Positions 11,015 through 13,283 of a stretch of DNA of 38,555 bases are shown here, in pieces. Location of the stretch: the IMG/VR virus record IMGVR_UViG_2537562091_000004; one strand, written 5' to 3'. Every line of letters starts with the position of its first letter. Position 1 is the first letter of the stretch. Under the pieces are notes generated by a model. The model was not told where the DNA came from. It saw only the letters and a program-made list of their open reading frames with translations, and ran no database searches. Position numbers and translations under genes: made by a program. This stretch comes from a virus (Duplodnaviria; Heunggongvirae; Uroviricota; Caudoviricetes).

Positions 11015-11369
11015 TTTTAATTTCACTGAAATTTAATACGTGACTTTCAGGAAAATGCCTCGCAGATGCGGGGCATTTTTGTACAGGTATTTCACCGCGC
11101 ACCGCAGTGCACTCAACCACGTCGAACCAAACCCTTTGGAATGAGCCTTTGAGTAGTCAGTTAGTGCTGGTGAGCCTTGACGGGCTGATCTCCTATGCAG
11201 CAAAGGTTCATCTCAAAGTAAGGCGAACGCTATGACAAACCAAGATTCTATAGACCTATCTGATCTTCGTGGAATGGTCAGTTTTCCAGACAAAAGGTAA
11301 TCACCATAGTCGTATGGCTATGAATCTTGTTGCTGCAGATAAGCATTTTGTGATTGAAGTGGTCAAATC

Positions 11370-11402
11370 TCTCAAATGCAGTAAAATGCAGTGCGCTATA
11401 AT
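11370..11402 (+). promoter_or_regulatory. Candidate promoter of the cargo gene at 11431: perfect TATAAT (11397-11402) preceded by a tandem direct repeat aaatgcagt x2
   Basis: TATAAT 28 nt upstream of a strong GGAGGGAGTAAGGAG SD; repeats at 11374-11382 and 11384-11392 overlap the -35 region. Confidence 0.35.
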
Positions 11403-11430
11403 TCAATAACGGAGGGAGTAAGGAGAAGTC

Positions 11431-12051
11431 ATGAAAGATCAAGATGTTAGGTTCGCGGTGCATCATAAGCTTTTGAAAGAATCGCATTTAGATCCAGACT
11501 GCCTTGTGGTCGATGAATTTTCCATATCCCTTGGCGCCAGTAGAGCAGACATTGCTGTAATAAATGGTGTTATACACGGGTACGAGCTCAAAAGTGAATA
11601 TGACTCTTTGGAGCGTTTGCCTCTTCAAATCAAGCATTATTCTTCTGTAATGGACAAGGTTACTCTTGTCGTAGCTGAGAAACATCTTGAGGGAGCATTA
11701 AAGTTAATCCCAGGTTGGTGGGGCGTTAAAACGGTTTCTGTTGGGCCAAAAGGCGCCATTCTTATAAAGCACATGCGTGGAGAAAAGCTTAATCGAAACC
11801 ATGACACATTGATGCTCGCTCAATTGCTTTGGAAAGATGAATGTATCGACGTACTTGAACGATGGGGCTATTCCAAAGGAATCAAAAGCAAGCCCCGATT
11901 TGAGTTATGGAATATTATTGCGGAAAATATTCCAATAGCGAATCTCAGGCTTGAAGTCAGAACAGCCTTAAAGAAACGCGTAGGCTGGAAAGTTAAGGCT
12001 TGGCAGGCTGAGTCTGCGCCAACCAATAAAGCTGTCTCACGACTAACGTAA
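11431..12051 (+). CDS. Hypothetical protein with a PD-(D/E)xK nuclease-like motif (AT-rich cargo gene)
   Basis: 206 aa; VVDEF...RADIAVINGVIHGYELKSE fits the D...(D/E)xK arrangement; lower GC than the flanking phage genes. Confidence 0.55.
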   Translation: MKDQDVRFAVHHKLLKESHLDPDCLVVDEFSISLGASRADIAVINGVIHGYELKSEYDSLERLPLQIKHYSSVMDKVTLVVAEKHLEGALKLIPGWWGVKTVSVGPKGAILIKHMRGEKLNRNHDTLMLAQLLWKDECIDVLERWGYSKGIKSKPRFELWNIIAENIPIANLRLEVRTALKKRVGWKVKAWQAESAPTNKAVSRLT

Positions 12052-13060
12052 TATGGTGCGTATGTGCAACTTTACGCCATTCTTTAGAGCCGCCAGATTT
12101 GTTAGCGCCTAATGATCTTTGGTAAATGTAATCATCCCCCCAACTAAATTTGGAACCAAAGACTTGATACTCTGGCGAACTAACAAGGGTAGTACATAAG
12201 TTTTTAGTTTGGCCCCATCCATTTCCTTTAACTGCGGTACCTTTTACAAAGATCCATGAGGTATCGTTCGAATATCTCACTGAGACATACTGAGACATGA
12301 AGCGTGGGTCTACGCTCGTAATGGTAGAGCTAGCGGTGGGATAATCACTAAAACTTGGCGTTCTTCCATTGCTAAAATTCTGTACTACGTACATCCAAAG
12401 ATCGTATTCATGGCGCGGAATATGATGAACTTGATGTTGCGGTATCCCTGCCTGTGATGCTGGGTATGCGGTTGAAGATAAAATCAAGTTTCTCCACGGA
12501 GCTTGGCCTGATAATGTGTTGACCATGCTTAATGCTTGTTGTTTTAAACTATCAGTTGCGTTTTGAATATCTCCAAAATCAATGATTACATCAATTAAAC
12601 TAGGATGAATATTTAAGTGGTTAACCAGACTTGTGAATTGGTGCCATGTCTGGGGGGTGATAGATATAGCGAGCCCATTGATTAAGTTGCGTTGAACAGC
12701 ATGTATATAGTTTGTTGAATATGCGGGAGAAACAACAGGGATAATTTCCTTACCATTTACTCTAGCATCTTGGATACACATATCTAGAGGATGATGGCGG
12801 CTCGAACCATGTTTATCTAAATATTTAACATCCAGCAAAACAGGACGATTGGCTTTCCAGGATGCCGCAAGGTTAATACCGAAGTCAGATAAGTAAGAAC
12901 TCAAACTCTTCTTGTAGCATTCGTTTTCATAATCCCAGTCTATGTCTGGAATGGTAATGATCGGAGTAAAACCAGAGAGCGTAGTTTGATCTAAAAGCAT
13001 CAGAGATTCATATTCAGCAGGCTTCCATTTCAGCTGTGGATAATATTGATGTTGACTCAT
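11993..13060 (-). CDS. Hypothetical 355 aa protein (AT-rich cargo gene), convergent with and 3'-overlapping the gene at 11431
   Basis: Long minus-strand ORF in an otherwise + strand region; no confident family match; RKVAHTHH near the C-terminus loosely fits Rx4-6H. Confidence 0.55.
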   Translation of the reverse strand: MSQHQYYPQLKWKPAEYESLMLLDQTTLSGFTPIITIPDIDWDYENECYKKSLSSYLSDFGINLAASWKANRPVLLDVKYLDKHGSSRHHPLDMCIQDARVNGKEIIPVVSPAYSTNYIHAVQRNLINGLAISITPQTWHQFTSLVNHLNIHPSLIDVIIDFGDIQNATDSLKQQALSMVNTLSGQAPWRNLILSSTAYPASQAGIPQHQVHHIPRHEYDLWMYVVQNFSNGRTPSFSDYPTASSTITSVDPRFMSQYVSVRYSNDTSWIFVKGTAVKGNGWGQTKNLCTTLVSSPEYQVFGSKFSWGDDYIYQRSLGANKSGGSKEWRKVAHTHHITLVVRQLYWLAQTQPAKP

Positions 13061-13283
13061 TAAAACTCCTTAAAATCTTTACTTATCCTAAGTATAGTGT
13101 TATGGCGTAACGCCAATTGTTTTTATACACTTGAAAACATTGGGAAAAGTTGAGCTATATCTAAATTTACAAAATTGGATGTTATAGAAATCGAGGTTTC
13201 AACTAGGCATGGAACTGCAAAATTTTTAATGCCTGCACGCGAAAGTCGTTGGCGGGTCCTTTCCGGTGATCCAGACCGTTACG

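What the first reader, a model, noticed from the sequence alone, without database searches (positions are those of the whole stretch)
11015..13283. AT-rich convergent two-gene cargo cassette between the spanin genes and cos: candidate undescribed defence or lysogenic-conversion module
This is the right-end accessory slot of a lambda-like genome, where lambda carries bor. Here it holds two ORFs (11431..12051 + and 11993..13060 -) that are visibly more AT-rich than the flanking lysis and packaging genes, consistent with horizontally acquired cargo. They converge and their 3' ends overlap by 59 bp, so each transcript is antisense to the other's 3' end. The plus gene has a nuclease-like PD-(D/E)xK motif, a strong SD and a perfect TATAAT; the minus gene (355 aa) has no family I can name. 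A nuclease-like protein paired with a larger partner, placed where it is likely expressed independently of Q, is the pattern expected of an abortive-infection or superinfection-exclusion module. I cannot match it to a named system.
Basis: partly seen in the sequence, partly recalled or inferred. Interest (0 to 1): 0.85.

Follow-up and report, generated by a model that had tools for sequence, protein, structure and literature searches.

The report
Gop-less P4 beta/cII-type defence cassette
The two converging genes next to the packaging site of this E. coli prophage are distant relatives of the beta and cII genes of satellite phage P4, the shared core of two known anti-phage systems. They occur here in a minimal two-gene form that has a name in databases, and I found no report of it being tested on its own.

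Summary
ORFs 11431-12051 (+, 206 aa) and 11993-13060 (-, 355 aa) converge and overlap by 59 bp. They lie in the most AT-rich 2 kb of the window (GC 0.40 against 0.53), between Rz and cos.

The claim that no family or system can be named is wrong. The 206-aa protein belongs to the sce7726 / Phage_P4_cII family and has a PD-(D/E)xK nuclease fold with invariant E29, D40, E52 and K54. The 355-aa protein is a Pfam Beta_protein with a TIM-barrel-like fold. RefSeq already uses both names, and the cassette occurs in 126 of 5426 complete E. coli genomes.

Relatives belong to two validated defence systems: P4 Gop-beta-cII (protects against lambda and P1) and PD-lambda-2 (its beta-like C component is needed for defence). 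This cassette lacks gop and lacks the HigB-like and Xre-peptidase genes.

My survey shows that the beta/cII pair is the constant core:
- It is always convergent.
- The 3' ends nearly always overlap, and always in the same relative frame.
- It spans many phyla and phages.
- Most PD-lambda-2-type loci carry an unreported fourth, cII-like gene.

The most likely function is prophage-encoded anti-phage defence. This is inferred by homology and has not been shown. I rate it a new variant of a known kind, of moderate interest.

The parts
11015..11235 (+). Not cargo. This is the remnant of the previous slot content: a terminator hairpin after Rz (11051-11080, followed by a T run) and the 5' end of a rha gene (from about 11163).
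   Evidence: It is 86% identical to the P22 rha region. Homology to a Rha-bearing E. coli prophage ends at 11235. The hairpin has an MFE of -22.6 kcal/mol, z -4.9.
11236..13248 (.). The acquired AT-rich cassette (2013 bp) holding both genes and their own 5' regions.
   Evidence: The boundaries come from blastn against prophages with other cargo. GC is 0.404, the lowest 2-kb window in the sequence. The region 11015-13283 that contains it is 99.8-100% identical in all 25 E. coli chromosomes listed, and 126 of 5426 complete genomes hold at least 80% of it.
11340..11402 (+). Conserved non-coding block upstream of the sce7726/cII gene. It holds TGGTCA (11360-11365), a tandem AAATGCAGT repeat (11374-11382 and 11384-11392), TAAAAT (11382-11387) and TATAAT (11397-11402). 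This is a putative promoter plus operator.
   Evidence: The block is conserved in the Edwardsiella, Klebsiella, Pantoea and Pectobacterium cassettes, while the sequence further upstream is unrelated. TGGTCA-16-TAAAAT scores 9/12 in the promoter scan. Function is inferred.
11420..11425 (+). Shine-Dalgarno AAGGAG, 5 nt before the ATG at 11431.
   Evidence: Read directly from the sequence.
11431..12051 (+). sce7726 / P4 cII-family gene (206 aa). It encodes an N-terminal PD-(D/E)xK nuclease domain (E29, D40, E52-x-K54), a C-terminal helical domain, and a disordered tail (residues 188-206).
11993..12051 (.). The 59-bp overlap of the two 3' ends. It has no terminator and no unusual RNA structure.
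   Evidence: Coordinates. Folding z-scores are +0.6 on both strands, and no terminator-like site is found. The overlap length is 2 mod 3, as in all 77 non-redundant overlapping pairs.
11993..13060 (-). Beta-family gene (355 aa) encoding a TIM-barrel-like protein. Residues conserved across the family are Y6, E16, D161, D239 and H336, and nearly always D77, R216, Y240, Y263 and W328.
13061..13166 (-). The 5' region of beta: AAGGAG (13066-13071 on the minus strand) and a conserved block (about 13119-13166) containing TATAAA (13122-13127 on the minus strand). This is a putative promoter. There is no gop-like ORF here.
   Evidence: The block is conserved across genera. No minus-strand ORF of 20 aa or more lies between 13061 and 13418. 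jackhmmer seeded with P4 gop finds nothing in the window.

Best explanation
The cassette at 11236-13248 is a self-contained, horizontally acquired two-gene module. It is made of distant homologues of the beta and cII genes of satellite phage P4.

Shown:
- cII/sce7726 is a PD-(D/E)xK nuclease-fold protein with an intact E..D..ExK site.
- Beta is a TIM-barrel-like protein with a conserved set of acidic, aromatic and histidine residues.
- The two genes are inherited together as an obligate convergent pair with overlapping 3' ends, across many bacterial phyla and phages.
- This pair is the constant core of the validated anti-phage systems Gop-beta-cII and PD-lambda-2.
- The present cassette has none of the extra toxin-type genes of those systems.

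Inferred:
- In the lysogen the cassette acts as a prophage-encoded anti-phage (superinfection-exclusion or abortive-infection) system.
- The conserved nuclease is the effector. The faster-evolving beta protein is its partner, which either holds it in check or senses the invader, possibly through an enzymatic activity.
- There is no terminator between the genes, so each transcript should run antisense into the other gene. Their expression would then be mutually coupled, and anything that shifts the balance (for example loss of beta, or strong rightward read-through) would free the nuclease.
For: Family membership:
- Searches place both proteins in their families. RefSeq names them 'sce7726 family protein' and 'beta family protein'.

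Folds:
- The nuclease fold is supported and its catalytic motif.
- The TIM-barrel-like fold of beta is supported.

Pairing:
- 161 of 165 loci seeded with sce7726 have a beta gene, always convergent. Two of the four exceptions are at contig ends; the other two, L011 and L124, are the same Xenorhabdus contig, where room exists but no beta was found.
- 7 of 7 look-ups seeded with beta have a convergent PF26915 gene.
- 77 of 86 non-redundant pairs overlap, and every overlap length is 2 mod 3.
- The pairwise-identity matrices of the two proteins correlate (r 0.76). Beta is the less conserved partner in 98% of comparisons.

Link to defence:
- P4 has gop-beta followed by a convergent cII. Gop-beta-cII protects against lambda and P1 (PMC9122126), and a phage gene, orf184, triggers cell death through it (bioRxiv 10.1101/2023.04.06.535777).
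- 47 of 58 PD-lambda-2-type loci also carry the convergent cII-like gene.

Context:
- The cassette sits in a variable cargo slot next to cos, as the P4 locus does.
- It is also present in Rac-SA53, in Gordonia and Mycobacterium phages, and in 122 IMG/VR stretches.
- Each gene has its own 5' block conserved across genera.
Against: - No phenotype is known for the two-gene form. The defence role rests entirely on homology, and the homologues are only 22-27% identical to the P4 proteins.
- In both validated systems the toxic component is another protein: Gop in P4 and the Xre-peptidase in PD-lambda-2. Neither is present here.
- The validated PD-lambda-2 clone ends 396 bp beyond C. It cannot contain a complete cII-like gene, so at least that system defends without the nuclease, if ECOR42 has one at all.
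- The nuclease gene is co-directional with the prophage's own late transcription. That would be awkward for a self-toxic effector.
- Promoters are not established.
- The TIM-barrel matches are generic, so no chemistry can be assigned to beta.
Confidence: 0.55

Rival explanations
1. It is an addiction (toxin-antitoxin-like) module. It stabilises the prophage or the cassette itself, with the nuclease as toxin and beta as antidote, and has no role against other phages.
For: - P4 gop and beta behave as a toxin-antitoxin pair (PMC9122126, citing Ghisotti 1990).
- The pair is tightly co-inherited.
- Convergent, overlapping transcription resembles the antisense control of type I TA systems and of some restriction-modification gene pairs. 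This rests on established knowledge and was not tested here.
Against: - The related systems were found because they protect against phages.
- Toxin-antitoxin behaviour and abortive-infection defence are not mutually exclusive.
- Beta is a 355-aa, enzyme-like barrel, unlike typical small antitoxins.
Confidence: 0.15
2. The pair serves the phage's own life cycle, for example lysogeny control or DNA processing during lytic growth, and not defence.
For: - The name cII comes from a P4 plaque phenotype (my recollection of Ghisotti 1990; the paper is not held).
- The nuclease gene is co-directional with the late operon that must cross this slot.
- The gene upstream of sce7726 is co-directional in 73 of 89 non-redundant loci.
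- The pair is present in phage genomes of several host phyla.
Against: - The P4 genes are non-essential.
- The slot holds unrelated cargo in sister prophages, so the pair is dispensable for this phage type.
- Many copies lie in bacterial chromosomes, including candidate-phyla-radiation lineages and myxobacteria. Some sit next to restriction or helicase genes.
Confidence: 0.15
3. It is a restriction-modification-like pair. The TIM-barrel beta protein modifies nucleic acid (as transglycosylases such as DpdA do), and the PD-(D/E)xK nuclease cuts unmodified invader DNA.
For: - The partner has a restriction-endonuclease fold.
- Convergent gene order is common in restriction-modification systems (established knowledge).
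Against: - No sequence match to any transglycosylase or to any solved structure was found.
- In P4 and PD-lambda-2, beta works together with toxins, which fits a regulator or sensor better.
Confidence: 0.07

Closest known systems
Gop-beta-cII of satellite phage P4 (DefenseFinder 'Gop_beta_cll'; PADLOC gop/beta/cll)
   Same: - Both conserved families are present: beta (PF14350) and cII (PF26915 / sce7726).
- Beta has the same length, 355 aa.
- Beta and cII converge in both.
- Both loci lie directly next to cos of a mobile element.
- The P4 system protects against lambda and P1.
   Different: - There is no gop here.
- The proteins are only 22% (beta) and 27% (cII) identical to the P4 proteins.
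- cII is shorter here, 206 aa against 229-270 aa in seven of the eight P4-type loci (P4 and the look-ups).
- The 3' ends overlap by 59 bp. Seven of the eight P4-type loci have a gap of 3-80 nt, and in P4 that gap carries an annotated terminator; L173 overlaps by 8 nt.
PD-lambda-2 (Vassallo et al. 2022, PMC9519451)
   Same: - The 355-aa protein matches the PADLOC PD-Lambda-2_C models better (E 4e-32) than the P4 beta model (E 3.5e-10).
- In nature, most PD-lambda-2-type loci also carry the convergent, overlapping sce7726 gene, in the same frame relation.
   Different: - The HigB-like A gene and the Xre/M78-peptidase B gene, which is the toxic component, are absent.
- The published system is described with three genes and no cII-like gene.
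PD-(D/E)xK nucleases of the MmcB-like / NucS / Can2 type
   Same: - The core is alpha-beta-beta-beta-alpha-beta. E29 lies in strand 1, D40 in strand 2 and E52-x-K54 in strand 3.
   Different: - There is no detectable sequence similarity to any solved structure.
- The protein has its own C-terminal helical domain.
- No ligand-sensing (CARF/SAVED) domain is present.
Lambda bor, the classic occupant of the Rz-cos slot
   Same: The cassette occupies the same genomic slot and is accessory cargo in the same sense.
   Different: The proteins are unrelated to bor. No lipoprotein or outer-membrane family match was found in the Pfam, NCBIfam or PHROGs searches.

Membership tests
Pfam PF14350 Beta_protein ('beta family protein') | Full-length match to the family HMM above the gathering score. 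| tested here: met
   190.4 bits against a cut-off of 27, covering residues 6-342 of 355 and model positions 1-342 of 342. RefSeq names it a beta family protein.
NCBIfam NF033832 sce7726 family / Pfam PF26915 Phage_P4_cII | Match to the family HMM above the curated cut-off. | tested here: met
   184.1 bits against a cut-off of 70. All homologues carry a precomputed PF26915 hit. P4 cII itself is named sce7726 family in RefSeq.
Gop-beta-cII anti-phage system | A gop gene immediately upstream of beta in the same operon. | tested here: not met
   No minus-strand ORF of 20 aa or more lies upstream of beta. jackhmmer seeded with P4 gop finds gop only in P4-type loci.
Gop-beta-cII anti-phage system | A beta gene and a cII gene that are adjacent and convergent. 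| tested here: met
Gop-beta-cII anti-phage system | Protection against phages (lambda, P1), and toxicity when beta is missing. | not testable with these tools
   This needs plaque and viability assays.
PD-lambda-2 anti-phage system | A HigB-like component A and an Xre-HTH/M78-peptidase component B upstream of C. | tested here: not met
   Neither window protein matches the A or B models, and nothing is encoded upstream of beta. Genuine A and B genes are easily recognised in other loci.
PD-lambda-2 anti-phage system | Component C (beta-like). | tested here: met
   PDLC03984 gives E 4.4e-32 and PDLC03983 gives E 2.2e-25.
PD-(D/E)xK nuclease superfamily | A restriction-endonuclease-like fold with the acidic/lysine catalytic motif in strands 2 and 3. 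| tested here: met
PD-(D/E)xK nuclease superfamily | Metal-dependent nuclease activity. | not testable with these tools
   This needs a biochemical assay.
TIM-barrel enzymes (any specific family, e.g. TGT/DpdA transglycosylases) | A specific structural or sequence match and the family's catalytic residues. | tested here: inconclusive
Classical type II toxin-antitoxin operon | Two small genes co-transcribed from one promoter. | tested here: not met
   The genes are convergent, each has its own conserved 5' region, and the products are 206 and 355 aa.

The most novel reading that the evidence does not exclude
The convergent, 3'-overlapping beta/cII pair is an autonomous and very widespread two-gene immune module, and the cII nuclease is its real effector. 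On this reading, Gop-beta-cII and PD-lambda-2 are elaborations of the core: extra toxin modules plugged in upstream of beta. PD-lambda-2 would in fact be a four-gene system. The universally conserved antisense overlap, always in the same relative frame, would be the regulatory switch that couples the two genes.
Probability: 0.3. Interest if true: 0.65.

Novelty: new variant of a known kind. Interest (0 to 1): 0.45.

Why it matters
If the two-gene form is active on its own, it would redefine two catalogued defence systems around a shared core of a nuclease plus a TIM-barrel protein. It would also add a large family to the known prophage immune repertoire: the cII-like family alone has about 3,600 clusters at 50% identity with E of 1e-10 or better. 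It would further suggest that a gene is missing from the published PD-lambda-2 definition. To my recollection of their three-gene rules, which I could not check here, current detection tools would not call this form. The strictly conserved convergent overlap would give a tractable model for antisense coupling of a toxin-like effector and its partner. For this window in particular, the result is more modest: the cargo is a recognisable relative of known systems, not an unknown kind.

Tried and rejected
- Sequence search of both family profiles against all PDB chains gave nothing meaningful.
- The Rfam scan of 10800-13600 found no known RNA family.
- Folding the overlap region showed no special structure or terminator.
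- The generic promoter scan was not above chance, so I do not claim mapped promoters.
- The beta alignment A3 was too divergent to seed locus scans. I tested reverse pairing through seven look-ups of beta proteins and through loci seeded with PD-lambda-2 B.
- The profile search with A3 returned only 60 proteins, because the search index works on short exact words.
- Ghisotti et al. 1990 could not be read. My recollection that a P4 cII-terminator mutation impairs beta expression is therefore marked as memory only.
- Searches for 'PF14350', 'Gop_beta_cll', 'sce7725' and 'PF26915' found no relevant paper. The six papers that mention sce7726 are genome or omics studies by their titles and abstracts; I did not read them.
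- I considered a lysogenic-conversion surface protein (bor/lom type) and rejected it, because neither protein matches such families.
- I could not check whether the original ECOR42 PD-lambda-2 locus has a cII-like gene, because its contig is not in the searchable collections.
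Full report
**What is in the sequence**

They converge and share 59 bp. RefSeq annotates the same two CDS in E. coli chromosomes that are 100% identical over 11015-13283.

The segment is the most AT-rich part of the window. GC is 0.404 for 11236-13248, against a mean of 0.531 (sd 0.044) for all 2-kb windows.

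The module lies between the spanin gene (10577-11014) and cosN (GGGCGGCGACCT at about 13284), with the small terminase gene starting at 13465. The window is a lambdoid E. coli prophage.

Comparison with sister prophages that carry other cargo defines the acquired segment as 11236-13248. The stretch 11015-11235 is older material. It holds a strong terminator hairpin after Rz (z -4.9) and the first ~70 nt of a rha gene.

In other E. coli prophages the same slot holds DUF1398+YlcI/YnfO, Rha, KilA-N, GIY-YIG, PerC, TonB-like or DUF6979 genes. It is therefore a genuinely variable cargo slot.

**What the two proteins are**

*The 206-aa protein*
- It matches NCBIfam sce7726_fam (184 bits, cut-off 70), the PADLOC model 'cll' (E 4e-31) and phrog_984. 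Its homologues carry Pfam PF26915, which is called Phage_P4_cII.
- E29, D40, E52 and K54 are invariant in 49 homologues and sit in strands 1-3.

*The 355-aa protein*
- It is a full-length Pfam Beta_protein (PF14350, 190 bits, cut-off 27). It matches the PADLOC models PD-Lambda-2_C (E 4e-32) and beta (E 3.5e-10).
- Its model (pLDDT 92.1) is TIM-barrel-like, but it resembles no particular barrel family and no solved structure by sequence.
- Across 28 very divergent members, Y6, E16, D161, D239 and H336 are invariant. D77, R216, Y240, Y263 and W328 are nearly so. Several of these follow the C-terminal ends of strands, which is where barrel enzymes keep their active sites. I infer that beta is an enzyme or a ligand-binding protein and not a simple antitoxin.

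**Relation to known systems**

Satellite phage P4 carries gop (133 aa) and beta (355 aa) on one strand and cII (264 aa) converging on them, right next to cos.
- Rousset et al. showed that gop-beta-cII protects against lambda and P1. They recalled that Gop is toxic without beta (PMC9122126).
- A later preprint found that phage gene orf184 triggers cell death through this system.
- Vassallo et al. described PD-lambda-2 as a HigB-like A, a toxic Xre-peptidase B and a C component 'related to a P4 phage antitoxin'. C is needed for defence against lambda vir (PMC9519451).

The window's proteins are distant relatives of the P4 proteins: 22% identity to P4 beta and 27% to P4 cII.

Neither gop nor the A and B genes are present. 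No minus-strand ORF of 20 aa or more lies upstream of beta. An iterative search with P4 gop finds gop only in P4-type loci.

**Survey of related loci**

*Seeded with the cII-like protein*
- I collected 80 loci from species-representative genomes and 80 from viral contigs.
- Together with the window and four phage and E. coli records fetched earlier, that makes 165 loci. In 161 of them a beta gene lies immediately downstream and is always convergent.
- Two of the four exceptions are at contig ends. The other two, L011 and L124, are the same Xenorhabdus contig, where room exists but no beta was found.

*Seeded with beta*
- Seven of seven look-ups showed a convergent PF26915 gene.

*Overlap and frame*
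- After removing redundancy at 90% identity, 77 of 86 pairs overlap at their 3' ends by 8-158 nt, and every overlap length is 2 mod 3.
- The relative reading frame of the two genes has therefore been kept across Proteobacteria, Firmicutes, Actinobacteria phages, Myxococcota, Acidobacteriota, Melainabacteria-like lineages and candidate-phyla-radiation bacteria.
- The non-overlapping pairs are mainly the P4-type clade, which has gop and a longer cII. Seven of its eight loci have a short gap, and one (L173) overlaps by 8 nt.

*Co-evolution and family size*
- The identity matrices of the two proteins correlate (r 0.76). Beta is the faster-evolving partner in 98% of comparisons.
- The cII-like family is large: 5551 clusters at 50% identity with E of 1e-3 or better, and 3586 at 1e-10.

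*Three architectures share this core*
1. The bare pair, as here. No coupled upstream ORF was found in 45 of 77 genome loci or in any of the viral loci. Examples are Rac-SA53 and Gordonia phages.
2. gop plus the pair, as in P4.
3. HigB-like plus Xre/M78 peptidase plus the pair. This was confirmed with the PADLOC A and B models at E 1e-37 to 1e-150.

*Seeded with the B protein*
- Of 58 metagenomic loci that could be judged, 47 had B, beta and the convergent overlapping cII-like gene.
- The published three-gene description and the PADLOC models do not include that gene.
- The validated ECOR42 clone ends 396 bp beyond C and could not contain a complete copy.

**Regulatory anatomy**
- Upstream of each gene there is a non-coding block conserved between the E. 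coli, Edwardsiella, Klebsiella, Pantoea and Pectobacterium cassettes, while the surrounding DNA is unrelated.
- For the nuclease gene the block reads TGGCCA...AAATGCAGT-A-AAATGCAGTGCGC-TATAAT, then AAGGAG 5 nt before the ATG.
- For beta the block contains TATAAA, followed by AAGGAG.
- I read these blocks as the cassette's own promoters, with a possible operator formed by the tandem AAATGCAGT. This is an inference, because a generic promoter scan is not above chance.
- There is no terminator and no unusual structure in the overlap. Each transcript should therefore extend antisense into its partner.
- In P4 the short gap carries an annotated terminator for cII. I recall that Ghisotti et al. 1990 reported that a mutation of that terminator gives a phenotype attributed to reduced beta expression. 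That would be direct precedent for antisense interference, but I could not read the paper.
- The prophage's Q-dependent late transcript must cross this slot in the nuclease-sense, beta-antisense direction to reach the head genes. More generally, the gene upstream of sce7726 is co-directional in 73 of 89 non-redundant loci, against 47 of 88 for beta.

**Most likely function**

I think the cassette is a prophage-encoded anti-phage module of the beta/cII family in its minimal form.
- The conserved nuclease would be the effector.
- The fast-evolving barrel protein would be the partner that restrains it or senses infection.
- Convergent transcription would couple their levels.

Family membership, folds, pairing and context are shown. 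The defence role and the division of labour are inferred.

The main weaknesses are these:
- The toxic components of the two validated relatives are absent here.
- The validated PD-lambda-2 clone worked without a complete nuclease gene.
- No phenotype exists for any two-gene representative.

The rival explanations are a pure addiction module, a role in the phage's own cycle, and a modification-restriction-like pair.

**Verdict**

It is a new variant of a known kind, the beta/cII core without the gop or HigB/Xre genes.

The survey results may interest specialists more than the cassette itself: an invariant convergent overlap in a fixed frame, the pair as a common core of two catalogued systems, and an unlisted fourth gene in most PD-lambda-2-type loci. 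Interest is 0.45.

Noticed in passing
L178-L257 (metagenome loci); L040, L048, L056, L060, L063, L073, L075, L077, L079-L081: Loci of the PD-lambda-2 type (HigB-like A, Xre/M78-peptidase B, beta-like C) carry a fourth gene in 47 of 58 judgeable cases. It is convergent, overlaps at the 3' end, and belongs to the sce7726/cII nuclease family. The published three-gene description and the PADLOC models do not list it, and the validated ECOR42 clone is too short to include it.
   Followed up: partly
window 11993-12051 and all paired loci (L003-L257): Every overlapping beta/cII pair (77 non-redundant pairs plus 47 PD-lambda-2-type pairs) overlaps by a length of 2 mod 3. The relative reading frame of the two antisense genes is conserved across phyla, while the overlap length varies from 8 to 167 nt.
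   Followed up: partly
non-redundant loci among L003-L164: The gene upstream of the cII-like nuclease gene is co-directional with it in 73 of 89 loci. The gene upstream of beta is co-directional in only 47 of 88. This suggests that read-through from a neighbouring operon often feeds into the nuclease gene. The loci are not phylogenetically independent.
   Followed up: no
window 7115-8961: The SASA-family (NanS-p-like) carbohydrate esterase gene is split into two overlapping ORFs. A single gap of about 7 nt separates it from the otherwise 99.6% identical intact gene in NZ_CP024155, so it is probably a pseudogene in this window.
   Followed up: partly
window 5890-6139: A cluster of three tRNA genes (anticodons CAT, TCG and TCT) lies between a DNA methyltransferase gene and the esterase gene. 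I recall this as the layout of Stx-converting lambdoid phages. The identical E. coli record annotates only a short partial hypothetical gene, and no toxin gene, in this interval. RefSeq calls the CAT tRNA tRNA-Ile.
   Followed up: no
window 11015-11235: This stretch holds a strong, potentially bidirectional terminator hairpin (11051-11080) and a 5' remnant of a rha gene. The cassette appears to have replaced the rest of rha and a YlcI/YnfO gene, which are still present in sister prophages.
   Followed up: partly
window 13103-13124: A short plus-strand terminator-like hairpin (GGCGTAACGCC plus a T run) lies just beyond the start of beta. This is where a nuclease-gene or late read-through transcript would end after crossing all of beta in antisense. 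It is not conserved in related cassettes.
   Followed up: no
L011 / L124 (Xenorhabdus koppenhoeferi contig): This is the only cII-like gene found with enough downstream sequence but no detectable beta gene. tblastn was also negative.
   Followed up: partly
E. coli records NZ_CM129638, NZ_CM149886 and NZ_CP024155 (L001): An IS1 element is inserted inside the cassette in two genomes. In NZ_CP024155 an IS3 element splits the adjacent small-terminase gene and the large-terminase gene is frameshifted. Several carriers are therefore decaying prophages that still keep the cassette intact.
   Followed up: no
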